From: a virus
Taxonomy: Duplodnaviria; Caudoviricetes
DNA: 63,533 nt
Strand: one strand, 5' to 3'
IMG/VR virus record: IMGVR_UViG_3300010157_000065
Coordinates: 1 to 63,533 of that record
This document shows, one piece after another, positions 935 through 42,765 of this stretch. The stretch's first letter is position 1. Each line of letters begins with the position of its first letter. The notes beneath the pieces are model-generated. The model searched no databases. It was not told the DNA's origin and was given only the letters and a program-made list of their open reading frames with translations. A program made the position numbers and the translations under genes.

Positions 935-3900
935 TTAAGGACAATTCCCAACTTTAACTACATTTATTGTAGGCTCTATTATTGTTCTAGCGCAGAAGAA
1001 ATCTTCCACATAACCTGAAGTTCCATCTACACTTATTGATTGTACATTATTTGAAGTATCTACATATAGACAAGAATTAACACCTTCGCTACTATATATT
1101 TTATATTGCTTGTAGTATGCTTGATTACAACTTCCTAAATCTGTAATTGTTGCAGAAGGAGTTGAACTAGGTATTATAGAAGTTCCACAAAAGTTAGATG
1201 TAGATAATGCTAGAGTTAAAGACCTAAAAGATTTAATCCCATCACAATCTATATAGTCTATGGTTTCTACTTGATCTGGGTCTCCATAATCTACCCAATT
1301 TGCTCTAAAACTTCTACAGTCTACAAAGTCTCTCATATTTATATCGACTCTTATTAATTCAGAGCAACTTCCACTAGCTACAATATATTCAAAATAGTCA
1401 GGTAGATAATCATTGCCAGTGCTTAGGTAAGTAATAAGGTCTCCTATAACTTCAACTTCTCCAAGAGGAGGATATGTATCAATAGTTATAGTATATGGTG
1501 AGTTTACAAAAATATTATCTAACGCATTGAAGGTAAAACTTTCTTTTTGATTTATGTAATATAATTTGTTTTTAATGGTTGCATACACATCATCTATGTA
1601 ATCCCATACAATATATAATTTTGCGTTTAAATCTCCATCTCTATCAAATAGAAACTCAATGTAGTTGTCATCTCCATCTGTTGTTATAGCAGGATAAGAA
1701 GCTCTATCTCTTATTTGTTGAGCATCTAAAATATCTCTAGTTACTATATAACCTATTTTGTTACAAGAAGTAAATACTCCACTTATTTTACTAGAATAAA
1801 CTCTAATTGTAGAACCTTGAAATGGGATACCACCATCGGATTCATTTCCTACAATGGTTTCAAATCTAGTAAGACCAGAAGACTCAAATGTATCATCATT
1901 AGAATATTCCCCACTAAATCCATAAACAGAATCAGTCCAAGTGTATCTATTTCTCATAGACTTGTTGGCATCAGATAAATCATTTACAACTAATGAAACT
2001 ATTTCTAATTGAGGTGTCTCAGGAATAGTATTATATAATGAAATATTAACTACATCAGATAATGAATTGTTTGTGATATTCACTGTAATTATTTCTGCTG
2101 TAGTATTTTTAGTAAAGCTAAAGTTTCCTATTCCAGCCCTAGCTATACCATTATAAGTATCTCCATCAAACAATACTTCTATATCTAAATCATTATCGCA
2201 ATCGTAATCTATTATAAAATCTCCTACTTTTTTACCTGCATTTATTTCATAAGTATATGTATTATTTTTTAATATAGGTAAATTACTTAGTCTTTGATTA
2301 GGTTTAACTCTTGGAATAGCTAAAGTACGAGACTCTCCTGTAATTGAAAAAATATAGTTGTCATAAGAAGGGTCGTAACCTCCAGAGAAAAACTTTCCTT
2401 TATTTATTCTTAAATTATCTCTAAACCAATCTCTCATTCCGTATCTTGAGATAGGCTCTAAGCCATCAGGACCTAATCTTAAAATAGCCCCCCTTCTTTG
2501 GTCTGCAAAATAAATGTTATTAGCAAAATTAGAGAAACTCTCAGGGTCTAATCCTATTCCATATTCTCCAGAGAAAGGAATCTCTTGACCTAAAACATTT
2601 TCAACAGATGTTATTTGACCTCCTCCAACAGCATCAGAAAGTAAGTTTTTATTATAAAGAACTTTATGCACCTTATCTTCTTGAAAAACTATTAAATCCG
2701 TATCCCTTGAAAATATCTTTTGAATGCTTCCGTATTTATCATCTAAGTCTTTATAGTTTGCTCTTGATAGATTAAACTCATTTAAAGAGTTATAAACTGT
2801 GGTTTTATCATAACCTCCACTATAAGTCAAAGAAGATATATTCCTTCTTTCTTTATACTCATCTAATAAAACCGCATTAGGTCTTGTATTTGTAGATAGG
2901 AAGTTTGAAGAGAATAAATCCCTAACTCTATAACTCTCCGCACCATTTCCTTGAGTATAACAATTAAAAAAAGATAGATTTAATTTGGCAGGAGTGCTAG
3001 ACGTTTGGTCTTGGTCTCCATTATCAATTCCATTTGATAAATGATTACCATTAAGGTCTATTAGGTAAGTATCAGGTGTCTCATAGTAAACTTGAGATAC
3101 TTTATCTTTAGGTTCTGTTTCAAATATAAGAAGTTTTGCTGCATTTGTTATTGTTATATTAAACCACATCCTAGAAAAAGTCTGTCCATTACCAGCGTGT
3201 ATTCCATACCCTTCCATATACAATGCCCCATTAGGGTTTGGGGTATAAACAGTATATGGCTGACCAGCAAAATACTGAACTTGAGCAGTAAGTCTTAAAA
3301 AACCATAACCAAAAGGACCTAATCCATTTGCTTCACTTTGAAACCAACTTTGAAAATTAAGGTAATCATCTCCTACCGTATAACTTTTAGAATGAGTAGT
3401 CCGCTCAGCATTATCTCCAACAGCATTAAGAACATATATATCTATCTTACTTCCAGCCGTTATAGGAAAATCTTCATACAATCCAGTTGTTGCATTTAAT
3501 TTACTAAATGATGGAGTTAATCTAACTCCTGGTATTCCGCTAGTTTCACCATCGCTTATTTGTTGAAAATAAAGAGTGTTACTGGCTGAACTTTCGTTAA
3601 TTATTCCTCCAACATCTTTAAGTTTTATATAATTTCCAGCTATTTCAGTAGGTGTTCCCTCGATAAAATTTGAGAGTTGTTGTTTATATTCTAACACTTC
3701 TATCTTCTCTAAAACATCTAAAGGACCGTTTAAGTTTCTTTTAAGAATTAAGAAATCACCTTGCGCTACTTTATTTTTGTCTTGCCCTTCTAGTTTTATC
3801 CATACATTATTTTCTTCCTTATATTGCACAAGTCCATATATGGTTTGATAATCTAGTTTATTATCTTTTACAAAAATTTTATATTTAGTAGCCCAAATAG

Positions 3901-5698
3901 GAGCTTTATGATTTATTTGTAATTTTAAAGTATTCTTTGTTTTTGAATATGTTATAGGAATAAAATGATTGTTTGTTCCTGTTTGTTTTGCATTAGTTAT
4001 AACCGTAGAATATCTACCTTCAATATCTAAATAAACAATGCCAACCTCATAACTCCTATTACTTTTAACACTAGAATAAGCATTCCCATTTGATAAATTC
4101 GCATAAAGACTTCCATCAAATATAGAGAAATATTCTTGACGATAAATAGTTCCGACCTTATACTCTATGTATGGTATTTTAATTTTTATTTTATTAACTG
4201 ATGCAGATGGTAACACTTCAAATGGTTTGTATTTACCTGCATATAAAGGGTCTTCCCCTAAAGGAGCGTTACTTCCTGTTAAGTAATTTTTAAAGTTATT
4301 TGAAGCTATGTTTATGAAATTAGCAAACTCTGGAGATACTTGTAATGCTTCTGCATTTGTATAATTAGAGTCTATATATGTAAATAAAGAAAATACATAA
4401 TTTCCTCCATAATTATAAGGAGTTATTGGACTTGTGGCTCTAAAGTTTAATCCTAATACCTCTCCTGATTTAATGGGTAAATTTGTAAAATCTAACTCTA
4501 TTACGTTAAAAATAGTACTTGTAATTGGAGTTGTGTCGGTAGTAGTTACTGAATTAGATATTCTATTAGAAGGAAGTGTAGCTGAACTTAATGGATTGTT
4601 TACTGATGATAAATTATAATCTATTTTTATAAAAGCTCCAGAGTTATCTATTAAATCTCTACCTTCTACATAGTTTCCATATATTAATCTATTCCCAATG
4701 AAGTCTTGAGATTTTGCTTTAATAGGTACATTATCAAATAATCTATTAACCTCATCTTCTGGAAGCACTGAGTATATTTGATTGTTAGAGAATGTGTATG
4801 ATTGATTTACATTATTTGTCCATCCAGATTTCCATTTATTAAAAGTGTCAATTATCCAAATAGTATTACTATTACTCTCTTTAAATAATAGTTGAACATC
4901 TGTAACATTTTTATCTCCTGTATCGAATTTTATATTTACTGCATTAAATTTATTTACCATCCCAAGGTTTTCATTAGTTTGAAAATCTATTCTAAACTTA
5001 CCAGGGTAAAATTGTGGGTTTGAAAAAGTAGAGATAGCTGAATATTCTCCATCTAAATATTTCCATCTATAACCAAAAGAAAGGAATCTCTCTTTAATAT
5101 TATTTTCAAGACCACTTCCGTATATTGTTGGTGTGCATACAGGAGGGAAATGAGGTTGTACTTTATATAAGTTTATGTCTTTACTAGAAAATGTATCTGC
5201 TGAAGGAGATGCAGGTCCATATCCTTTTGCTCTATTAATATTTATACATCTAATAGGGTTTAAATCATCAGTCCAAACTAATAGCTTTTCTTTATTAAAT
5301 GAATTGTATATTACATTAGCTCCTGTTATTTTATAATTTTTTTTAAAATTTAATACATTTGTATAACCTCTGGTATCTTCTAAAACAGTAGACACAGTTC
5401 CTGCATTGTTTAATTGGTCGTACTCAAATATATAATTTCCTGTAGATGATGTTACAAACCAATAAATACATTCATTACCCTCATCAGTAACACTACCTAT
5501 TGTTTCAGAATCAGAAGGTATAAATACATTACTTATTTTATCAAGACCAAAAGAGTTTTGTACACTTCCAACTTGAGAACCCTCAGAATTTGAAACCAAT
5601 ACATTAAAAGCATCTATATATTCACCTTCAGGTATTAAACGGACATCAAAGTCCTTGTTCATTTTACCTTGTACAAAATTCTTTTTTAATTCACTCAT
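935..5698 (-). CDS. Tail stabilization / nozzle protein (P22 gp10-like), 1587 aa
   Basis: N-term NFxxGKMNKDxDxRLIPxGEYxDAxN, WTDDLNPIRCIN, GNRLIYGNY, YGIGLDPESF motifs; follows adaptor genes. Confidence 0.75.
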   Translation of the reverse strand: MSELKKNFVQGKMNKDFDVRLIPEGEYIDAFNVLVSNSEGSQVGSVQNSFGLDKISNVFIPSDSETIGSVTDEGNECIYWFVTSSTGNYIFEYDQLNNAGTVSTVLEDTRGYTNVLNFKKNYKITGANVIYNSFNKEKLLVWTDDLNPIRCININRAKGYGPASPSADTFSSKDINLYKVQPHFPPVCTPTIYGSGLENNIKERFLSFGYRWKYLDGEYSAISTFSNPQFYPGKFRIDFQTNENLGMVNKFNAVNIKFDTGDKNVTDVQLLFKESNSNTIWIIDTFNKWKSGWTNNVNQSYTFSNNQIYSVLPEDEVNRLFDNVPIKAKSQDFIGNRLIYGNYVEGRDLIDNSGAFIKIDYNLSSVNNPLSSATLPSNRISNSVTTTDTTPITSTIFNVIELDFTNLPIKSGEVLGLNFRATSPITPYNYGGNYVFSLFTYIDSNYTNAEALQVSPEFANFINIASNNFKNYLTGSNAPLGEDPLYAGKYKPFEVLPSASVNKIKIKIPYIEYKVGTIYRQEYFSIFDGSLYANLSNGNAYSSVKSNRSYEVGIVYLDIEGRYSTVITNAKQTGTNNHFIPITYSKTKNTLKLQINHKAPIWATKYKIFVKDNKLDYQTIYGLVQYKEENNVWIKLEGQDKNKVAQGDFLILKRNLNGPLDVLEKIEVLEYKQQLSNFIEGTPTEIAGNYIKLKDVGGIINESSASNTLYFQQISDGETSGIPGVRLTPSFSKLNATTGLYEDFPITAGSKIDIYVLNAVGDNAERTTHSKSYTVGDDYLNFQSWFQSEANGLGPFGYGFLRLTAQVQYFAGQPYTVYTPNPNGALYMEGYGIHAGNGQTFSRMWFNITITNAAKLLIFETEPKDKVSQVYYETPDTYLIDLNGNHLSNGIDNGDQDQTSSTPAKLNLSFFNCYTQGNGAESYRVRDLFSSNFLSTNTRPNAVLLDEYKERRNISSLTYSGGYDKTTVYNSLNEFNLSRANYKDLDDKYGSIQKIFSRDTDLIVFQEDKVHKVLYNKNLLSDAVGGGQITSVENVLGQEIPFSGEYGIGLDPESFSNFANNIYFADQRRGAILRLGPDGLEPISRYGMRDWFRDNLRINKGKFFSGGYDPSYDNYIFSITGESRTLAIPRVKPNQRLSNLPILKNNTYTYEINAGKKVGDFIIDYDCDNDLDIEVLFDGDTYNGIARAGIGNFSFTKNTTAEIITVNITNNSLSDVVNISLYNTIPETPQLEIVSLVVNDLSDANKSMRNRYTWTDSVYGFSGEYSNDDTFESSGLTRFETIVGNESDGGIPFQGSTIRVYSSKISGVFTSCNKIGYIVTRDILDAQQIRDRASYPAITTDGDDNYIEFLFDRDGDLNAKLYIVWDYIDDVYATIKNKLYYINQKESFTFNALDNIFVNSPYTITIDTYPPLGEVEVIGDLITYLSTGNDYLPDYFEYIVASGSCSELIRVDINMRDFVDCRSFRANWVDYGDPDQVETIDYIDCDGIKSFRSLTLALSTSNFCGTSIIPSSTPSATITDLGSCNQAYYKQYKIYSSEGVNSCLYVDTSNNVQSISVDGTSGYVEDFFCARTIIEPTINVVKVGNCP

Positions 5699-25771: not shown

Positions 25772-26032
25772 TTAAAGTACTATTCTAATGTCATTCTCGC
25801 TAATGACTAGGTATTTTCCGCCTTCTATTCTTAATTCACTAGCATTAGTTTTATCGTAGTAAATTTTATCTCCAGGTTGAATACCTTTAACCAAATCACC
25901 TGTTAGAAATACATCGGCAAGTTTATACCGTATCTCTCTATCGTTTGCTTCAGTTATTACTAAACCAACTTTGTTTTTAACCTCCTCTTTAATTGGGGAG
26001 ATAACTATTGTTCTTCCAAATGCTTTTGCCAT
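25772..26032 (-). CDS. groES: Co-chaperonin GroES
   Basis: Mobile loop VGLVI, GIQPGDKIYY, EGGKYLVISENDI. Confidence 0.85.
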   Translation of the reverse strand: MAKAFGRTIVISPIKEEVKNKVGLVITEANDREIRYKLADVFLTGDLVKGIQPGDKIYYDKTNASELRIEGGKYLVISENDIRIVL

Positions 26033-27630
26033 TACCCTTGTCTTTTATTAGTTATTGTAGCCTCTGTAGTCAATAAAATAGAGGAAACAGATACTGCATT
26101 CTCAACAGCATTACGAACAACCTTAGTCGCATCAATAACACCCATTTTAAACATATCCCCACATTCTTCTGTAATTACGTTATATCCATATCCTTTGGTA
26201 TCCTCTTTAAATATATCTGCTAATATTTCATCTACACCAACACCAGCATTTTTTAATATTTGGTCAAATGGAGAATGTAAAGCAGACATTATTGAAAAGT
26301 ATCCTTTATTGAAATCGCTTTGAGAATTTAATTCAAATGGGTCTTTAAACATTTTTAAGCCATTAAAAACATCAATCAATGCTATTCCTCCTCCAGGCAA
26401 AATTCCTTCTTCTAACGCAGCCTTTGTAGCTTTAATCGCATCATCAACTCTATCTTTCTTCTCCTTCATTTCAACCTCGCTATTAGCCCCTACTTTTACT
26501 ACAGCAATCCCACCACATAATCTGCCAAGTCTGTCTTCGTAGTGCCATAGGTCTAGTTTGTTTTCAGAGAGTGAGATAGATTCTCTTACGTTAGAAACAC
26601 GAGCCTCAATATCATCTATGTACTTCTCTCTATCTGTAATAAGAATAGTTTGGTGTACATCAGAAATACATTTAAAAGCCTCTCCTAAGTAAGATGCGTC
26701 AATAGTAGATAAATCATTCCCTGTTTCATCAGATGCAAGTGTAGCTCCTGTTAATGCACATAGGTCCTCTAGTAATTCAAACCTTTTGATACCAAATCCT
26801 TCAGGTGAAACCACATTAACTTTAATTACTCCTTTAGCTTTGTTTACGTTCAAAGTATTCATAACACCATCTTCAACATCAGAGATAATCAAGAGGCTTC
26901 TTTTGTTTTGCATAGCAGCCTCACATATTGGAAGAATATCCTCAAGACTTTTAATTTCTTGGTCTGAGATAAATACTAATGGGTTTTCTAACACACACTC
27001 TTGTTTCTGTTGGTTTGTTATTAAATAAGGAGAGTTATACCCCTTCTTAATTTTAGTTCCATCAATAACTTCAACGTATGTTTTAGAAGACATACTTTCC
27101 TCCATAGTTACAACACCATCAACACCAACTTTTAAGTAAGCACTTGCAATAATATCACCCAGCTCACTATCATTATTAGCTGAGATTCTAGCTACGCTTT
27201 TAAGGGTCTTGTTGTTTACCTTCTTACTTTGTTTTTTCAACGCTTCAACAATGTCGTTTGAAGCCATCTGCATACCCTTTTTAAACTGAGAGATATTTGT
27301 CTTTTCATCAATTAATGTAATTGCTTTGTTTACAATGCTTTGTGTTAATACTGCTGTGGTTGTAGTTCCATCGCCTGCGTTATCAGCACTTCTTATAGAT
27401 GCTTGCTTGATAATACTTGCTCCTAGATTTTCTGTGGGATCAGATAGATTAATAGACTTTGCTACTGTAACACCATCTTTTGAAAGGTGAGGAAGACCTC
27501 TCTCATCTTCTATTGCAACATTTCTTCCTGCTGCACCTAATGTAACTTTTACTGCGTTTGCAACAATGTTTACACCGTTAATTAATTTTTCTTTGGCATC
27601 ATCTCCAAAGAGGATTTCTTTTTCAATCAT
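26032..27630 (-). CDS. groEL: Chaperonin GroEL
   Basis: KDGVTVAK, GDGTTT, ISANND, EKKDRVDDA, GILPGGG; no GGM tail. Confidence 0.97.
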   Translation of the reverse strand: MIEKEILFGDDAKEKLINGVNIVANAVKVTLGAAGRNVAIEDERGLPHLSKDGVTVAKSINLSDPTENLGASIIKQASIRSADNAGDGTTTTAVLTQSIVNKAITLIDEKTNISQFKKGMQMASNDIVEALKKQSKKVNNKTLKSVARISANNDSELGDIIASAYLKVGVDGVVTMEESMSSKTYVEVIDGTKIKKGYNSPYLITNQQKQECVLENPLVFISDQEIKSLEDILPICEAAMQNKRSLLIISDVEDGVMNTLNVNKAKGVIKVNVVSPEGFGIKRFELLEDLCALTGATLASDETGNDLSTIDASYLGEAFKCISDVHQTILITDREKYIDDIEARVSNVRESISLSENKLDLWHYEDRLGRLCGGIAVVKVGANSEVEMKEKKDRVDDAIKATKAALEEGILPGGGIALIDVFNGLKMFKDPFELNSQSDFNKGYFSIMSALHSPFDQILKNAGVGVDEILADIFKEDTKGYGYNVITEECGDMFKMGVIDATKVVRNAVENAVSVSSILLTTEATITNKRQG

Positions 27631-29729: not shown

Positions 29730-30470
29730 CAACATATTTTCCACATTATATACATAAGTTACTAATAAATAAAAAGTATACAAGAGTGGTATCACTCATC
29801 ATATAAGTTAGCCTTATAGAATGGTTGAGACCTATGTTGTATGTTTTTTTAGAATACCACATATCAGTAAGTTTTAGGTTATACCCCATTCTCCACCCTC
29901 TCACCTCTCCCCATAACCGAATATATTTCACCCCCCCCATAATTATAATTACATTTTGATTTTAAACTTTTTGCCTTTTTTCCTCCTATATATGTAACCG
30001 TAAATAAATAACCCTGTTTTAATTTTATAGGTTTTTTTTAGTAGGTCCATTTTGCGATACCTTGAAAAAAGTTTTTTTAGATGGTCCAAAAGGTTGTGTT
30101 AAACCAGCTCTAAATTCTAAAAACAGTTAATTTGTTTAAATAATCAATTTACATTATTATGTTTTCATAGTTTATATATTATGCTGCAATAGTTTAAATA
30201 GTGTTTATATTACATTATATATATGTTTTCGTTGTCCTTATATATATACGTGTTTTAATAGTTTTATATGTTAATTATTTTAAATTGGATTAAAAAATTA
30301 TATCCTTGATACTCAACAACTTACAAAATACTTTTATTTAATTATGTTAAAGTTTTGTTAAAAATTTGGAAATAACATTTTAACCGCCGTATATTTGTAC
30401 CGTTGCAATGAAGCAACAAAAAACATATTATAACTAAATTAGTTTTCGGAGCTTTTTAAAACCGACTAAA
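29730..30470. other. AT-rich non-coding divergence region between the two transcription arms (candidate genome end / control region)
   Basis: No credible ORF; homopolymer runs (C8, T7), repeated GTTTTTTTAG..GGTCCA. Confidence 0.55.
30365..30397 (+). promoter_or_regulatory. Early promoter (-33 TTTG, -7 TATATTTG)
   Basis: Both Bacteroidota elements with ~21-nt spacing. Confidence 0.7.
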
Positions 30471-30473
30471 AAA

Positions 30474-30896
30474 ATGAATACAACAGTAAAAAACACCAGT
30501 ACAAAAAAAGTAGCTACAAAATTGAGCGTTACTGAATTATTAAAAGCAACTACCGAAAAAATCGCAACCCCTAAAAAAACAAATTTAGAGAGACAAAACG
30601 ACCTTATAAATAAAGAGGACAAAACTACTTTTGACTGGGTAAAACTGGCAAATGTAACCGATAAAATAGAGGACAAAACTATTTCAAAGGTTTACAAAAA
30701 TTGTATAAAAAACGTTTATTTAAAAAATATAACGGGACTAACTAAAACACCTACTTTTGAGGACTTCAAAGCTAAAATGTCAGTAAAAGAAACTTATTCA
30801 AACTGGGACGGATACAAAGCACTGGCTAAATTTAACGTAAAAAATAACACAGCTGCAAAGGTGAAAAGACAAAACAAAAAAGAGGCTAAAAAATAG
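30474..30896 (+). CDS. First early gene, very basic 140-aa protein
   Basis: Lys/Thr-rich; follows the early promoter; precedes the structured RNA locus. Confidence 0.75.
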   Translation: MNTTVKNTSTKKVATKLSVTELLKATTEKIATPKKTNLERQNDLINKEDKTTFDWVKLANVTDKIEDKTISKVYKNCIKNVYLKNITGLTKTPTFEDFKAKMSVKETYSNWDGYKALAKFNVKNNTAAKVKRQNKKEAKK

Positions 30897-30906
30897 CCTT
30901 TAAATA

Positions 30907-30956
30907 GGTGTAAAAGACTTGGCTTTTTTATCGGGTTCAATTTGCCCGATACACCA
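30907..30956 (+). ncRNA. tRNA-like element 1 (acceptor, D-like and T arms; no anticodon arm)
   Basis: GGTGT/ACACC-A acceptor; AAAAG-ACTTGG-CTTTT arm; ATCGGG-TTCAATTTG-CCCGAT T-arm. Confidence 0.6.
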
Positions 30957-30959
30957 CTA

Positions 30960-31300
30960 ATAAATGTAAGGAATACACCAAAAACAAACGTTTTGAGGTC
31001 GTTAACTGGCGAAATGCGAGGACTTCAAAAAAGGCGAAACGCTATGTTTGTTATAACGTGCAAAAATTCTGGAAATATTTAGTAACCTTTAATATGAGGG
31101 ACTGGCAAAGGTCTTGCCTACTAAATTTGACACGGAATACAAGAAACAACTACACTGAACCGTCAAGGGTGTAAGGCTATAAAAGTAGTCAGGTTTGAAC
31201 TGCGAGGAAATTTATAGGGCTTTTTAAATACATTTAGAATGTATTATTTTAGTCAATACCATATTTGAAATATAGGGCAAAAAATAAAGATAATTATATA
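30960..31300 (+). ncRNA. Putative large structured non-coding RNA
   Basis: ORF-free with nested helices (see findings). Confidence 0.6.
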
Positions 31301-31304
31301 TTTT

Positions 31305-31337
31305 AGGCACACCTTATAAAATAGGTGTGCCTTTATT
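31305..31337 (+). terminator. Perfect 10-bp hairpin, terminator or processing stem
   Basis: AGGCACACCT-TATAAAAT-AGGTGTGCCT then TTATT. Confidence 0.65.
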
Positions 31338-31340
31338 ATA

Positions 31341-31406
31341 TGGTATGTTGCAAGGTGCAAAGGGCAAAATTATTTTGTCTTATGGGTTCGATTCCCATCA
31401 TACCAA
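31341..31406 (+). ncRNA. tRNA-like element 2 (non-canonical cloverleaf)
   Basis: 7-bp acceptor TGGTATG/CATACCA; canonical T-arm ATGGG-TTCGATT-CCCAT; mini D-arm TTGCA-AGG-TGCAA; 9-bp stem with 3-nt loop in place of an anticodon arm. Confidence 0.75.
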
Positions 31407-31454
31407 CAACTGCAATAGTGCAGCCAAACAATAAAATAATATAAAAAAAAGAAA

Positions 31455-31652
31455 ATGAAAAATTTAAGTCAATCAACTTGGGAGATGTGGTTTATTACAT
31501 CAGTAACGGTATTTTTAGCAATGTTTTTTATCGGGGCGTTGCCAGGCAGTGTGGTCTTCTTCCCTTTATTCTGGTGGATGTTCGGGCCTGTAATCCTTAA
31601 TTTAGTAGCGTGTATTTATGTTGGTCTTAATTCACAATCACATGAGGAATAA
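31455..31652 (+). CDS. Small two-TM membrane protein
   Basis: Two hydrophobic helices. Confidence 0.65.
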   Translation: MKNLSQSTWEMWFITSVTVFLAMFFIGALPGSVVFFPLFWWMFGPVILNLVACIYVGLNSQSHEE

Positions 31653-31809
31653 TAAAAGGTATACGGAAAGCAAGGCAAAATCGAGTGATGCCGTTAAACA
31701 AATGGAAGGGTTTTACTCTTGGATGCTAAAAATAAAGAGCATACACCTAGCCGACAACGAGAGGATGTCAAGGGCATACCAAAACATATATAATAATGCA
31801 GTAAAGTAA
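31642..31809 (+). CDS. Hypothetical early protein
   Basis: MRNNKRY...FYSWMLKIK; ATG at 31642. Confidence 0.55.
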   Translation: MRNNKRYTESKAKSSDAVKQMEGFYSWMLKIKSIHLADNERMSRAYQNIYNNAVK

Positions 31810-31826
31810 AATAATATAAAGAAAAC

Positions 31827-32166: not shown

Positions 32167-32787
32167 ATGATAGGAATATACAAAATAATCAGCCCTAGTA
32201 ATAAAGTGTACATAGGTCAGTCCGTAAACATTAGAAAAAGATTTAATGCTTATAGATATGCTAAATGCAAAGGACAAATAAAACTATATAGATCATTCAT
32301 TAAATATGGCGTAGAAAAACATATTTTTGAAATTATAGAAGAATGTAATATTGAAGAACTAAATAAAAAAGAAAGATATTATCAAGATTTATATAATGCT
32401 ATTTGTCCCAAAAACGGATTAAATTGTTTATTGACCGCAACTGAAACTAAAAGTAAAGTTTTTAGTAAGGAAACTAGAGAAAAAATGTCAATATCAAGAA
32501 CAGGTAAAACTCAAAGTAAGGAAACTAGAGAAAAAGTATCTAAAGCAAATAAAGGTAAATTGTTTAGTAAAGAAACTAGAGAAAAATTATCTATAGCTGC
32601 AAAAGGAAGGATTAGGACAGAAGAACATTTAAAGAATAGATGTAAAATAATATTAGATACAAATAACGGAGTGTTTTACTTCGGATTAAAAGACGCATCT
32701 AAATATTCAGGAATAAATGAGCATACACTGAGAGCTAAATTAAATAATAGATTTGGACCAAACAATACCAGTTTAAGGTATGTATAA
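32167..32787 (+). CDS. GIY-YIG homing endonuclease with NUMOD3 repeats
   Basis: GIYKI...YIGQS, R, E, N catalytic pattern; three SKETREK(M/V/L)S repeats. Confidence 0.92.
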   Translation: MIGIYKIISPSNKVYIGQSVNIRKRFNAYRYAKCKGQIKLYRSFIKYGVEKHIFEIIEECNIEELNKKERYYQDLYNAICPKNGLNCLLTATETKSKVFSKETREKMSISRTGKTQSKETREKVSKANKGKLFSKETREKLSIAAKGRIRTEEHLKNRCKIILDTNNGVFYFGLKDASKYSGINEHTLRAKLNNRFGPNNTSLRYV

Positions 32788-32856
32788 TAAAATAATATAA
32801 ACAAGTAAAGTAAAATAATATAATCAAATAGGTTGTGCCTTACCACTAAATCAAAA

Positions 32857-33051
32857 ATGTATTCAAATTTAACAAAAGAGCAATTAATCGCACATTTAGA
32901 AGCAAAAGATGATATAATAGAACTTCAAGAAAGTACTATTGAAATGTATCTATCAGTAGTTGAATTAATAGAACATAAACTAAAAATGGTATTAGAATTA
33001 CAAGAAATTCAAGAAGACAAATTAAATAAAATAGAACAATCAATAAAATAA
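32857..33051 (+). CDS. Small coiled-coil protein
   Basis: MYSNLTKEQLI..., heptad pattern. Confidence 0.6.
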   Translation: MYSNLTKEQLIAHLEAKDDIIELQESTIEMYLSVVELIEHKLKMVLELQEIQEDKLNKIEQSIK

Positions 33052-33063
33052 TATAAAAAAAAG

Positions 33064-41874: not shown

Positions 41875-42765
41875 ATGAGTGGATGGATAAAAATACATAG
41901 AGAAATAAAAAATCATTGGATTTGGAATAATACAGAATACTTTAAATGGTGGATGGATATTTTATTGGAAGCTAATTATCTTCCTAGTAAGGTAGTTATA
42001 AAAGGAACTATTTATGAGTGCGGAAGAGGTGAAAAACTATACTCTTTAGATACTTGGGCAAGTAGATGGAATACCAATAAAAGTAAGGTTAGAAGGTTTT
42101 TAAATCTGTTACAAAATGACTCAATGATAGAGATTAAAAACGAAACGCAAACGACACGTATAACTATCTGTAATTACGATGATTACCAAGATAAAGAAAA
42201 CGCAAGTGAAACGCAAATGAAACGCAAACGAAACGCAAGTGAAACGCATTTGACACCAATTAAAGAAAGAAAAGAAATAAAGAAAGATAATCTTTTAGTA
42301 GAAGTTGATAGAAATGGTCTTGATGATGCCACAAAAACATACTACGATATTGCAATTGGCTTTCAAAGAGTATTTATTCTTAATAAAAAATCTTTAGGAC
42401 TTACTAATTTTGAAGATCAAAATAATGCTACATTTAAAAGTTATGTCGAGCCTATTAGATTAGCATTTGAAAAAGATAAAAGAACCAGAGATGACTTTGC
42501 TAAGATATTTATATTTCTTCAGTCAGATGAGTTTTGGATGAAGAACATTATGTCTACATCTAAACTAAGAGAAAAAATGGGTGATTTATTAATTAAAGCA
42601 TCAAAACTTAAAGCTAAACAAGCTAAACTACCTGATGACTGGTATTCAAGAGAACTAACTACAGAACAACAATCACTACTATCACCTGAGCAATTAAAAA
42701 GATGGAAAGAAAATAAGGTTAGGTTAGGTGTTGAGGGTGGATATTTAAAACCAATAGAAAGATAA
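41875..42765 (+). CDS. Replication initiator (lambda O / DnaD-like)
   Basis: MSGWIKIHR.I..HWIW, wHTH, TRITICNYDDYQ, C-terminal FWMKNIMS..KLR; internal iterons. Confidence 0.85.
   Translation: MSGWIKIHREIKNHWIWNNTEYFKWWMDILLEANYLPSKVVIKGTIYECGRGEKLYSLDTWASRWNTNKSKVRRFLNLLQNDSMIEIKNETQTTRITICNYDDYQDKENASETQMKRKRNASETHLTPIKERKEIKKDNLLVEVDRNGLDDATKTYYDIAIGFQRVFILNKKSLGLTNFEDQNNATFKSYVEPIRLAFEKDKRTRDDFAKIFIFLQSDEFWMKNIMSTSKLREKMGDLLIKASKLKAKQAKLPDDWYSRELTTEQQSLLSPEQLKRWKENKVRLGVEGGYLKPIER
42142..42251 (+). repeat. Iterons, probable replication origin
   Basis: Five tandem 11-bp (G/A)AAACGCAnnn units at 42197-42251 plus one at 42142; followed by an A-rich tract. Confidence 0.85.

What the first reader, a model, noticed from the sequence alone, without database searches (positions are those of the whole stretch)
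30960..31300. Multi-domain RNA fold with junctions and a possible pseudoknot
Seen pairings: AACAAAC(30983-89)/GTTTGTT(31046-52) encloses TTTTGAGGTC(30991-31000)/GACTTCAAAA(31021-30) and GGCG-AAA-CGCT. ATTTAGTA(31077-84)/TACTAAAT(31119-26) closes a three-way junction with CCTT/GAGG and GGCAA/TTGCC. Further stems: TACAC(31151-55)/GTGTA(31169-73), GGCTAT/GTAGTC, AATACATT/AATGTATT. TTGAC(31127-31) can pair with loop GTCAA(31162-66). Several G-U pairs favour RNA over DNA structure and fix the + strand. Function is unknown.
Basis: seen in the sequence. Interest (0 to 1): 0.7.

Follow-up and report, generated by a model that had tools for sequence, protein, structure and literature searches.

The report
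Structured phage spacer RNA with tRNA-like ends
The flagged stretch lies in a 558-base non-coding spacer in the early genes of an uncultured freshwater phage that most likely makes a folded, modular RNA followed by a tRNA look-alike with no anticodon; its job is unknown.

Summary
As a whole, 30960-31300 folds only slightly better than shuffles (z -1.45). The support comes from relatives. In the one close homologue, L106/L123 (78% identity), the first three-way junction and the UACAC/GUGUA hairpin keep their pairing through compensatory changes. Across all helices tested, 10 doubly changed pairs are kept and 1 is broken, against a random mean of 1.49.

The second junction is not conserved: 26 nt are missing in L106. 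The pseudoknot gains no support.

The finding is part of a 558-nt spacer (30897-31454) after a small basic ORF in the rightward early operon of a complete 63.5-kb phage. The phage has GroEL and a crAss-type muzzle protein.

The spacer is modular:
- a T-loop minihelix;
- a core (31127-31292) 94% identical to L106;
- an intrinsic-terminator-like hairpin;
- a tRNA-like element (31341-31406) without a usable anticodon loop, kept in four phages with covarying acceptor and T stems.

Rfam and ARAGORN name nothing at threshold. No RNA data exist. My best reading is an early structured non-coding RNA with tRNA-mimic processing modules. It is a new variant of a known kind.

The parts
30390..30397 (+). 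TATATTTG box (TAnnTTTG, the Bacteroidota -7 promoter consensus as I recall it) upstream of the small ORF. It is the likely start signal of the rightward early transcript.
   Evidence: The same TATATTTG lies upstream of the ORF's counterparts in L012 and L013. TAnnTTTG is common in this AT-rich genome (65 on + and 70 on -), so this is weak on its own.
30474..30896 (+). 140-aa lysine-rich ORF ('p140') of no known family. A long non-coding spacer follows it in every relative that has it.
   Evidence: no PHROG or Pfam family. One search finds homologues in L123 (65% identity) and in L024, L032, L018 and L028 (38-42%). (protein atlas) was uninformative.
30907..30955 (+). 5' minihelix: GGUGU/ACACC closes a small hairpin and a T-arm-like hairpin, AUCGGG-UUCAAUUUG-CCCGAU.
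   Evidence: -15.9 kcal/mol, z -3.03, 2 of 200 shuffles as good. C-G becomes U-A in L106. The same layout, with other closing stems and a GGGGG-UGCAAUU-CCCCC hairpin, follows the ORF in L024, L028, L032 and L018.
30983..31052 (+). Domain 1, a three-way junction: P1 AACAAAC/GUUUGUU; P2 UUUUGAGGUC/GACUUCAAAA with an inner hairpin CUGGC-GAAAU-GCGAG; P3 GGCG-AAA-CGCU.
   Evidence: z -3.30. Searches show compensatory changes in L106 (P1 x1, P2 x3, inner hairpin x1 plus one mismatch repaired) and two one-sided changes in P3 that keep pairing. About 22 of 70 positions differ, by my rough reading, yet the pairing is kept.
31077..31126 (+). Domain 2, a three-way junction: AUUUAGUA/UACUAAAU, CCUU/GAGG, GGCAA/UUGCC. 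It is specific to this lineage.
   Evidence: z -2.04, with the - strand equally good; 26 nt carrying the 5' closing strand and CCUU/GAGG are absent in L106/L123. Only GGCAA/UUGCC is kept, and it is unchanged.
31127..31173 (+).
   Evidence: A-U becomes G-C in the hairpin. The pseudoknot pair U-A becomes C/C (broken) and its other 4 pairs do not vary; contigs in runs X3 and X5 match from 31125 onward and are unlike the window upstream of it.
31175..31216 (+).
   Evidence: All these pairs are invariant between the window and L106, so the two folds cannot be told apart.
31217..31254 (+). GGCU/AGUC stem with U-rich internal loops, capped by hairpin AAUACAUU/AAUGUAUU. Sequence blocks GGGCUUUUU and UUUUAGUCAAUACC are conserved as far as L013.
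   Evidence: In L013 the cap hairpin is UAUACU/AGUAUA, which I read by eye as two pairs changed on both sides.
31258..31292 (+). Hairpin CCAUAUU-UGA-AAUAU.GG, followed by the conserved AGGGCAAAAAAUAAAGAUA.
   Evidence: GGGCAAAAAA is kept in L106, L012 and L013.
31293..31340 (+). Intrinsic-terminator-like hairpin AGGCACACCU/AGGUGUGCCU with a U-rich tail (CUUUAUUAUA). An A-rich tract upstream (around 31283-31289, inside the previous part) can pair with the tail.
   Evidence: terminator scan. (z -6.78, 0 of 200 shuffles as good). (AAUAAAG/CUUUAUU). Hairpins of unrelated sequence sit at the same place, before the same tail, in L106, L012 and L013.
31341..31406 (+). tRNA-like element: 7-bp acceptor stem, compact D-like hairpin with an AGG loop, a 7-bp arm closed by a UUA triloop where the anticodon loop should be, a canonical T arm (AUGGG-UUCGAUU-CCCAU), discriminator A, and no encoded CCA.
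   Evidence: Rfam tRNA 28.3 bits against a gathering score of 29; anticodon loop 1 nt in place of 5 in the alignment. (ARAGORN: none). (z -3.17). Syntenic elements score 22.5 (L106), 17.4 (L013) and 14.3 (L012) bits. Acceptor and T stems covary.
31410..31423 (+). Small hairpin CUGCA/UGCAG, starting 4 nt after the tRNA-like element.
   Evidence: G-C becomes A-U in L106. L013 has AUGCAAUAUUGCAU and L012 has CUAU/AUAG at the same place.
31432..31445 (+). TAAAATAATATAAA, a gene-start motif 9 nt before the next ORF's ATG. It marks the 3' boundary of the spacer and is probably not part of the RNA fold.
   Evidence: 4 exact copies on the + strand (31432, 31807, 32788, 33044). Three lie 6-9 nt before an ORF start (31455, 31827, 33064). 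Also kept in L012, L013 and L106.

Best explanation
The finding is the middle of a 558-nt non-coding spacer (30897-31454) in the rightward early operon of a complete 63.5-kb phage. The phage resembles phages of flavobacteria: it has GroEL, a crAss-type muzzle protein, portal, large terminase and a DnaD-like loader.

I read the spacer as a modular, structured + strand RNA. It would be transcribed from the host-type promoter in front of the small basic ORF, or from a start inside the spacer, and would end at the terminator-like hairpin at 31305-31340. In order, its modules are:
1. a T-loop minihelix directly after the ORF's stop codon;
3. a slowly evolving core, 31127-31292;
4. the terminator;
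5. directly after it, a tRNA-derived element that keeps the acceptor stem, an AGG D-like loop and the T arm, but has lost a usable anticodon loop.

Proposed mechanism (inferred, not shown). The two tRNA-mimic modules are handled by the host's tRNA-end enzymes, RNase P and RNase Z. That handling would punctuate the early transcript, set the ends and stability of the non-coding RNA and of the downstream early mRNAs, and release a small anticodon-less tRNA-like RNA. The structured body would persist as an abundant early RNA, as reported for long intergenic RNAs of Cellulophaga phage phi14:2.

Shown: the spacer is non-coding, selection acts on + strand pairing, it is modular, and the tRNA-like acceptor/T-arm is kept in four phages. 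Inferred: that it is transcribed, where its ends lie, that it is processed, and any trans-acting role.

The confidence given (0.5) is for the statement as a whole. That it is a + strand structured RNA under selection I put at about 0.7, and the specific processing role at about 0.3.
For: Context
- The window is a whole virus record with phage genes. Its structural protein is closest to phages of Flavobacterium, Cellulophaga and Maribacter.
- A strand switch near 30 kb puts the spacer in the rightward block.

Non-coding
- The only + strand ORF of 40 aa or more inside the spacer is 46 aa with a TTG start. In L106 it carries 2-nt and 1-nt indels.
- There are stops in all three frames of 30960-31342.

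Selection on structure, window against L106
- All helices: 65 pairs unchanged, 4 one-sided changes kept, 2 one-sided broken, 10 two-sided kept, 1 two-sided broken, 12 in gaps.
- Sliding the partners gives 0-2 two-sided kept pairs. Random pairs give a mean of 1.49 and a maximum of 8 in 5000 draws, none reaching 10.
- On the RNAalifold consensus: 7 pairs with a change on both sides, against 0-3 when slid; 4 of 500 shuffles reach 7.

Strand
- G-U pairs lie on the + strand, and the + strand folds better.

Conservation
- The core 31127-31292 differs from L106 at 10 of 166 positions, by my count. The adjoining ORF is 65% identical in protein, and the 29846-31448 stretch is 70.5% identical in DNA.
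- Contigs in two further runs match only from 31125 to about 31300.

Terminator
-. The hairpin's sequence differs in all four phages while its position and U-rich tail are kept.

tRNA-like element
- The Rfam tRNA model aligns end to end with all four syntenic copies, all below threshold: 28.3, 22.5, 17.4 and 14.3 bits.
- The acceptor stem is GGUAUG/CAUACC in three copies and CAAUAG/CUAUUG in L013.
- The T stems are AUGGG/CCCAU, GUAGG/CCUAC, GUUGG/CCGAC and AGCGG/CCGUU.

Precedent
Against: - There is no expression evidence.
Part of it, 31127-31200, is no better than shuffles.
L106 and L123 are one phage, 99.7% identical.
- A terminator-like hairpin lies 5 nt upstream of the tRNA-like element. 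The element is therefore transcribed only by read-through or from a promoter I could not identify.
- The middle of the tRNA-like element is not conserved, and its tRNA score falls from 28 to 14 bits among relatives. That pattern also fits a decaying tRNA gene.
- RNase P/Z processing is inferred purely from shape.
- The phage encodes no CCA-adding enzyme, so any CCA would depend on the host.
Confidence: 0.5

Rival explanations
1. Evolutionary debris. The spacer is what is left of a phage tRNA gene or cluster plus AT-rich filler, its hairpins are incidental, and it has no function of its own beyond ending the upstream transcript.
For: - All four tRNA-like copies score below the Rfam threshold, from 28.3 down to 14.3 bits, and ARAGORN finds none.
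- Domain 2 comes and goes through a 26-nt indel.
- The 5' half has no alignable counterpart in L012 or L013.
- The whole region folds only marginally better than shuffles.
Against: - 10 doubly changed pairs are kept against 1 broken, where chance gives about 1.5.
- The core is 94% identical (my count), next to an ORF that is 65% identical in protein.
- The acceptor and T stems covary across four phages while the rest of the element drifts.
- A long structured spacer follows the ORF in a second clade as well.
Confidence: 0.15
2. A DNA-level control region. On this reading the hairpins and conserved blocks are promoters, terminators, operator sites or single-strand DNA hairpins used in transcription or replication initiation, not a folded RNA.
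For:
- Sigma-70-like matches number 9 against 5.3 expected.
- A terminator-like hairpin is present.
- The spacer lies about 1 kb from the strand switch.
- The twin GCG-AAA-YGC triloop hairpins resemble unusually stable DNA mini-hairpins (recalled, not tested).
- Sequence-conserved blocks such as UUUUAGUCAAUACC and AGGGCAAAAAA show no covariation.
Against: - G-U pairs and G-U intermediates occur only when the + strand is read. On the other strand they would be A/C mismatches.
- The - strand folds worse.
- UUUUAGUCAAUACC is not repeated in the genome: 14 matches at up to 3 mismatches against 16.25 expected.
- The replication-initiator and loader gene lies 11 kb away, at 41875-42765.
- TAnnTTTG is frequent by chance here, with 135 copies.
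Confidence: 0.15
3. A highly diverged tmRNA-like RNA, of the kind Cellulophaga phage phi14:2 carries in its early intergenic region.
For: - phi14:2 has an ARAGORN tmRNA at 4031-4500 (Rfam 46 bits against a gathering score of 47). That position lies inside the non-coding gap before g006 and should be within one of the intergenic regions the preprint reports as highly transcribed. I inferred the overlap from the annotation table.
- The window's spacer is of similar length, has T-loop and acceptor modules, and has a candidate pseudoknot.
- The 17-mer of the sister clade's T-arm-like hairpin also occurs inside permuted tmRNA genes.
Against: - ARAGORN finds no tmRNA in the window or in 15 related loci. 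Rfam lists no tmRNA match.
- Both tRNA-like modules are closed locally, and for the 3' one the local acceptor pairing covaries in L013. A tmRNA closes its acceptor stem with its two distant ends.
- There is no G3:U70 pair.
- None of the three frames has a short reading frame ending in an Ala-rich tag.
Confidence: 0.04

Closest known systems
Early long non-coding RNAs of Cellulophaga phage phi14:2 (g004-g005 and g005-g006 intergenic regions; preprint 10.1101/2020.03.07.982082, passages read)
   Same: Both are long (over 0.5 kb) intergenic stretches in the rightward early block of a phage that infects, or resembles phages of, flavobacteria and has crAss-type virion genes. Both contain tRNA-mimic modules: a tmRNA at 4031-4500 and, by my own descriptor, a tRNA-like minihelix at 1772-1849. 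Function is unknown in both.
   Different: There is no sequence similarity; only chance 12-17-nt matches appear. The phi14:2 region holds a bona fide tmRNA and this spacer does not. phi14:2 has a virion RNA polymerase with a DFDxD motif, and I found no DFDxD in the five large ORFs checked here. Expression is shown for phi14:2 only.
tRNA (Rfam RF00005)
   Same: Acceptor stem, GG-containing D-like loop, canonical T arm and loop (UUCGAUU), discriminator A. The model aligns end to end.
   Different: All four copies score below the gathering score, and ARAGORN calls none. The anticodon arm ends in a triloop or is missing, so it cannot decode. No CCA is encoded. The 20-mer spanning the T arm and 3' acceptor strand matches none of the species-representative genomes scanned, so it is not a recent copy of a host tRNA end.
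tRNA-like processing modules on longer transcripts, such as MALAT1/mascRNA in mammals, and the small stable RNAs cut from the phage T4 tRNA cluster (both recalled, not tested here)
   Same: A tRNA-shaped element without decoding ability sits at the end of a longer structured transcript, where RNase P/Z cleavage would create the ends of the flanking RNAs.
   Different: Cleavage is not shown here, and a terminator-like hairpin already lies just upstream. There is no homology; the resemblance is architectural only.
Large ornate phage-associated RNAs next to tRNAs (GOLLD, ROOL; Rfam families; the association with tRNAs is recalled)
   Same: A multi-helix non-coding RNA in a phage genome, adjacent to a tRNA-type element, with unknown function.
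   Different: No Rfam match at gathering scores over the whole window or at E up to 10 over 30700-31600. It is much smaller, about 430 nt. It is far less conserved: its 5' half turns over between close relatives.

Membership tests
tRNA (RF00005) | Score at or above the Rfam gathering score (29 bits), or an ARAGORN call | tested here: not met
   28.3 bits in the window; 22.5, 14.3 and 17.4 bits in L106, L012 and L013. ARAGORN finds 0 genes in the window and 0 in 15 related loci.
tRNA (RF00005) | Seven-nucleotide anticodon loop with U33 on a 5-bp stem | tested here: not met
   In the window the arm GGCAAAA/UUUUGUC closes on a UUA triloop. Forced open, the loop would be AAUUAUU, with A at position 33. 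L106 has no such arm, and in L012 the order of arms differs.
tRNA (RF00005) | Acceptor stem stacked on a 5-bp T stem with a UUCRANY loop | tested here: met
   Present in all four phages, with compensatory changes in both stems.
tmRNA (RF00023 and permuted forms) | Acceptor stem formed by the distant 5' and 3' ends, a G3:U70 pair, a tag reading frame, and a model or ARAGORN match | tested here: not met
   No ARAGORN or Rfam call. The acceptor is closed locally with all Watson-Crick pairs. No tag-like frame. Positive control: the phi14:2 tmRNA is found by both tools.
Bacterial Y-RNA-like RNA (YrlA) with a tRNA-like domain | Rfam match and a neighbouring Ro (TROVE-domain) gene | tested here: not met
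   No such Rfam match. There is no TROVE domain anywhere in the phage, while the control genomes ring.
Rho-independent terminator | GC-rich hairpin followed directly by a U-rich tail, kept in position among relatives | tested here: met
   10-bp stem with 6 G-C pairs and tail UUAUUAUAUG; z -6.78. Hairpins of different sequence sit before the same tail in L106, L012 and L013. Termination itself cannot be tested here.
   0 matches at gathering scores in 63,533 nt. None among the 11 weak matches in 30700-31600.
Conserved structured RNA (general criterion) | Base pairs kept through compensatory changes more often than in controls | tested here: met
   10 kept and 1 broken, against 0-2 for slid partners and a random mean of 1.49. 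7 against 0-3 on the RNAalifold structure. For the 5' two-thirds this rests on only one independent relative.
   4 of 5 pairs never vary and 1 is broken in L106 (U-A becomes C/C). Runs X3 and X5 show the same A-to-C change at 31166.

The most novel reading that the evidence does not exclude
A previously undescribed class of phage early non-coding RNA. It would be a modular scaffold whose ends are anticodon-less tRNA mimics, a T-loop minihelix at the 5' end and a tRNA-derived element at the 3' end. The phage would use them to engage host tRNA-handling machinery (RNase P/Z, CCA addition, modification enzymes or tRNA-targeting defence nucleases), either to sculpt its own early transcripts or as a decoy that protects the translation apparatus. 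The rapidly changing central helices would be a variable, host-interaction surface.
Probability: 0.15. Interest if true: 0.75.

Novelty: new variant of a known kind. Interest (0 to 1): 0.5.

Why it matters
Phages of Bacteroidota are abundant in water and in guts, yet their non-coding RNAs are almost unexplored. The only experimental hint I found is the pair of abundant, unexplained early RNAs of phi14:2. This spacer offers a second, sequence-unrelated example that also carries tRNA-mimic modules. It also gives a concrete, testable idea: tRNA-shaped elements that can no longer decode are kept as processing or decoy modules in phage early transcripts. If that were confirmed, it would add a phage example to the small set of tRNA-like punctuation signals I know of. 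It would also give a handle on how these phages organise early gene expression without their own RNA polymerase. If it is not confirmed, the region is an ordinary fast-evolving spacer with a terminator and a decayed tRNA.

Tried and rejected
Family and gene finders
- Rfam at gathering scores on the whole window: nothing. Rfam in E-value mode on 30700-31600: only the sub-threshold tRNA match and noise.
- ARAGORN: no gene in the window.

Searches for relatives that gave little
- blastn against 50,697 phage records: no match.
- The nearest published phage, MW202828.1, has no counterpart. The best blast E was 0.3, and its 593-bp annotation gap looks coding.
- tblastn with the small ORF against the phage collection: no match.
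- Protein-anchored searches in IMG/VR with the small ORF and with the 255-aa ORF: no relatives.
- Exact-pattern scans of IMG/VR: 0 hits, only L013's contig, or only L012's contig among 17 hits.
- Metagenome scan: 43 hits, of which 2 (L106 and L123, one phage) were real.
- Genome scan with the T-arm-plus-acceptor 20-mer: 0 hits.

Sequencing runs
- No RNA holder was listed among the 21 runs returned, and the four DNA runs laid were contigs only. Expression remains untested.

Ideas dropped
- Small-protein reading of the 46-aa ORF 30942-31082: rejected because of indels in L106.
- UUUUAGUCAAUACC as a repeated promoter: rejected, not enriched.
- My own descriptor for acceptor-plus-T-arm minihelices was not specific: 59 hits against 41-52 in shuffles. 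I make no claim about how common such elements are.
- The 17-mer GGGGGTGCAATTCCCCC is not specific either. It gave 97 IMG/VR hits, including T arms of permuted tmRNAs. Only 5 of those loci carry the sister-clade spacer, and 4 of them are contigs I already held.
- The protein atlas search for the small ORF was uninformative.
- MAFFT misaligned the four tRNA-like copies, so I read their stem pairs by eye rather than counting them with the tool.

Tools lost
- The script machine was lost, so per-segment identities were counted by hand.
- I could not see the supplementary tables of the phi14:2 preprint (transcript abundances and 5' ends).
Full report
**1. What the window is**

The window is a whole virus record of 63,533 bases from IMG/VR, estimated complete, with about 30% G+C.

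It encodes a portal, a large terminase, virion proteins, GroEL, a DnaD-like loader, a primase and a GIY-YIG homing endonuclease. It also encodes a homologue of the crAss-virus muzzle protein (PF25731, E 3.5e-14).

Its 470-aa structural protein is closest to an uncultured podovirus (MW202828.1, 57%), Maribacter phage Panino (52%), and Flavobacterium and Cellulophaga phages.

Genes run leftward up to about 30.1 kb and rightward from about 30.4 kb. The finding lies about 0.6 kb into the rightward block. I found no DFDxD polymerase motif in the five large ORFs I checked.

**2. The observation**

G-U pairs occur in four of the helices.

Thermodynamically the whole 30960-31300 stretch is unremarkable: -67.4 kcal/mol, z -1.45, and 7 of 100 shuffles fold as well. 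The opposite strand is weaker, at -51.8 kcal/mol, z -0.56.

| Part | z-score | Shuffles as good |
|---|---|---|
| First junction (30980-31055) | -3.30 | 1 of 200 |
| Second junction (31074-31129) | -2.04 | 12 of 200 |
| 31127-31200 | +0.31 | 122 of 200 |

For the second junction, the minus strand folds equally well.

**3.

The finding sits in a 558-nt gap (30897-31454) between a 140-aa lysine-rich ORF of no known family (30474-30896) and a 65-aa ORF (31455-31652).

Upstream of the 140-aa ORF is a TATATTTG box, which matches the TAnnTTTG -7 element of Bacteroidota promoters as I recall it. The same box precedes the ORF's counterparts in two relatives. The motif is frequent by chance in this genome, however.

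- A strong terminator-like hairpin at 31305-31332 with a U-rich tail (z -6.78).
- Five bases later, a tRNA-like element at 31341-31406. It scores 28.3 bits on the Rfam tRNA model against a gathering score of 29, and ARAGORN does not call it. A 7-bp arm closed by a UUA triloop stands where the anticodon loop should be.

**4. Relatives**

Direct DNA and protein searches around the spacer found nothing in the published phage collection or, at first, in IMG/VR.

Using the phage's GroEL as an anchor gave 80 loci.
- The closest, L011 (94% GroEL), ends just before the spacer.
- L012 (88%) and L013 (71%) hold a syntenic spacer of 566-620 nt after a counterpart of the small ORF.

One metagenome pattern scan added L106 and L123. 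These are one phage (99.7% identical to each other) and are 78% identical to the window over 30831-31448.

A second clade (L018, L024, L028, L032) has a 38-42% homologue of the small ORF, followed by a 580-700-nt spacer of its own.

Further scans added no new member of the window's own clade. They added one more contig of the second clade.

**5.

| Element | Window | L106 | Reading |
|---|---|---|---|
| P1 | AACAAAC/GUUUGUU | AAUAGGAC/GUUUUAUU | One C-G to U-A exchange, two A-U to G-U changes, and a matched insertion on both strands (my reading; MAFFT places the last pair differently) |
| P2 | UUUUGAGGUC/GACUUCAAAA | (G)UUUAACUUC/GAGGUUAAA(A) | Three pairs changed on both sides and kept (G-C to A-U, G-U to C-G, G-C to U-G); one terminal pair lost |
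| Inner hairpin | CUGGC/GCGAG | UUAGC/GCUAA | One compensatory change; a G/G mismatch becomes A-U |
| P3 | GGCG/CGCU | AGCG/UGCU | Two one-sided changes, both still paired |
| Hairpin | UACAC/GUGUA | UACGC/GCGUA | One compensatory change |

Four changed on one side and stay paired, and 2 changed on one side and break. Five changed on both sides and stay paired, and 1 changed on both sides and breaks. Eleven pairs are deleted.

With the flanking helices added, 10 doubly changed pairs are kept and 1 is broken. Sliding the 3' partner by 1-3 columns gives 0-2. Random pairs that are complementary in the window give a mean of 1.49 and a maximum of 8 in 5000 draws.

On the RNAalifold consensus, the tool counts 7 pairs with changes on both sides, against 0-3 when slid. 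Four of 500 shuffles reach 7.

About 22 of the 70 positions of the first junction differ, by my rough reading, yet the fold is kept.

**6. What is not supported**

- The second junction is not conserved. A 26-nt stretch carrying its 5' closing strand and the CCUU/GAGG hairpin is missing in L106/L123. There, GGCAA/UUGCC forms a simple extended hairpin.
- GGCAA/UUGCC, GGCUAU/GUAGUC and AAUACAUU/AAUGUAUU do not vary between the window and L106, so that comparison says nothing about them. RNAalifold prefers CUAUAAA/UUUAUAG to GGCUAU/GUAGUC.
- The proposed pseudoknot loses its first pair (U-A becomes C/C), and its other four pairs never vary. Contigs in two other runs carry the same A-to-C change at 31166.
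- L012 and L013 align with the window only over the 3' 170-250 nt. Each carries different helices there.

**7. The conserved 3' half**

From 31127 to 31292, the window and L106 differ at 10 of 166 positions (94% identity, counted by hand). The adjoining ORF is only 65% identical in protein, and the wider 29846-31448 stretch is 70.5% identical in DNA.

Contigs in runs X3 and X5 match the window only from 31125 to about 31290-31300. They have unrelated sequence upstream. The core therefore behaves as a module.

Within the core, GGCU/AGUC encloses the AAUACAUU/AAUGUAUU hairpin. In L013 the sequence blocks GGGCUUUUU and UUUUAGUCAAUACC are kept, while the hairpin becomes UAUACU/AGUAUA. I read that as two pairs exchanged.

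AGGGCAAAAAA is kept in all four phages.

The terminator-like hairpin has a different sequence in each phage, always followed by (C)UUUAUUAUA or a similar tail:

| Phage | Stem |
|---|---|
| Window | GGCACACCU/AGGUGUGCC |
| L106 | GUCAAGUCA/UGGCUUGAC |
| L012 | AACACGUA/UACGUGUU |
| L013 | AGUCCUUUG/CAAAGGACU |

That pattern, with shape, position and U-tail kept while the stem sequence is free, is what I expect of an intrinsic terminator.

**8. The tRNA-like element**

The Rfam tRNA model aligns end to end with the syntenic element in all four phages, always below threshold.

| Phage | tRNA score (bits) | Acceptor stem | T stem | T loop |
|---|---|---|---|---|
| Window | 28.3 | GGUAUG/CAUACC | AUGGG/CCCAU | UUCGAUU |
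| L106 | 22.5 | GGUAUG/CAUACC | GUAGG/CCUAC | UUCAACU |
| L012 | 14.3 | GGUAUG/CAUACC | GUUGG/CCGAC | UUCGAGU |
| L013 | 17.4 | CAAUAG/CUAUUG | AGCGG/CCGUU | UUCAAUU |

In L013, five of the six acceptor pairs are exchanged relative to the other three.

An AGG motif sits in the D-like region of all four. The segment between differs in length and fold, and only the window can be forced into an anticodon-like loop, with A at position 33.

The discriminator is A, and no CCA is encoded. The 20-mer covering the T arm and 3' acceptor strand occurs in none of the species-representative genomes scanned.

A small hairpin follows 4-5 nt later, and it covaries: CUGCA/UGCAG in the window and CUACA/UGUAG in L106.

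So the acceptor-plus-T-arm half of a tRNA is under selection, while the decoding half is not.

**9. Comparison with known systems**

- **Curated RNA families.** Nothing in Rfam matches, so GOLLD, ROOL, Y-RNA-like families, ribozymes and introns are not supported. The phage has no Ro/TROVE gene and no CCA-adding enzyme.
- **Closest precedent.** In passages of the phi14:2 preprint, two long intergenic regions in the early, rightward block of that Cellulophaga crAss-like phage are transcribed above most genes and persist. Their function is undetermined.
- **What I found in the phi14:2 record.**
  - A tmRNA lies at 4031-4500 (ARAGORN; Rfam 46 bits against a gathering score of 47). That is inside the non-coding gap before g006.
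  - A further acceptor-plus-T-arm minihelix lies at 1772-1849 by my own loose descriptor. That descriptor is not specific.
  - There is no sequence similarity to the window.
- **tmRNA reading for the window.** I rejected it. Neither tool calls one, both tRNA-like modules are closed locally, there is no G3:U70 pair, and there is no tag frame.

**10. Verdict**

My best-supported reading is an early structured non-coding RNA ending at a terminator. It is framed by a T-loop minihelix and an anticodon-less tRNA-derived element, which probably serve as signals for the host's tRNA-end processing.

Transcription, RNA ends and processing are all inferred. No RNA data could be found.

The main rivals are decayed tRNA debris and a DNA-level control region.

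Noticed in passing
window 31432-31445, 31807-31820, 32788-32801, 33044-33057 (+ strand); also 32811-32824 with one mismatch: The 14-mer TAAAATAATATAAA occurs exactly 4 times, all on the + strand in the early block. Three copies lie 6-9 nt before an ORF start (31455, 31827, 33064). It is also kept in L012, L013 and L106, and many other metagenome contigs carry the 31425-31460 block behind unrelated sequence. It could be an early or middle promoter giving near-leaderless mRNAs, or a translation-start motif.
   Followed up: partly
L135 (NC_021806, Cellulophaga phage phi14:2) 4031-4500 and 1772-1849: ARAGORN calls a tmRNA (tag GSSVQKLAMVA*) in the non-coding gap before g006. This should be within one of the highly transcribed 'long non-coding RNA' regions of the phi14:2 preprint. 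My loose descriptor also picks up a second tRNA-like minihelix with a perfect T arm in the g002-g003 gap, which ARAGORN does not call.
   Followed up: partly
L024:8690-8740(-), L028:7340-7379(-), L018:7700-7790(-), L032: In a second phage clade, the homologue of the small ORF is followed at once by a GGGGG-UGCAAUU-CCCCC hairpin enclosed by a 5-6-bp stem. The stem's sequence differs between lineages (AGUAG/CUACU against UCGAAU/AUUCGA). L018 has three copies of the hairpin motif. The same 17-mer also forms the T arm of permuted tmRNA genes on unrelated contigs (L164, L171).
   Followed up: partly
window 31006-31020 and 31033-31043; the aligned L106 positions: There are two near-identical small hairpins, GCG-AAA-YGC, in the first junction. 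In L106 both copies read AGCGAAAUGCUAAG, an exact 14-nt direct repeat. This suggests a repeated binding site for a protein, or a tertiary-contact motif.
   Followed up: no
window 32167-32787 (+): A free-standing GIY-YIG homing endonuclease gene (PHROG 314, E 1.6e-30) lies in the early block. The block between about 31700 and 33030 is arranged differently in L106, which is consistent with mobile insertions.
   Followed up: no
window 26032-27630 (-) and 935-5698 (-): A 63.5-kb phage carries both a full-length GroEL (PHROG 5725, E 4e-141) and a 1587-aa homologue of the crAss-virus muzzle protein. No DFDxD polymerase motif was found in the five large ORFs checked. It may be a small relative of crAss-type phages that relies on host RNA polymerase for early genes.
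   Followed up: partly
L012:2440-2600 (- strand): The motif CTTATTTTAG recurs four times within about 130 nt of L012's version of the spacer. ATTTTAG also recurs in the window (31245, 31300) and in L013. It is close to, but does not match, the TAnnTTTG promoter box.
   Followed up: no
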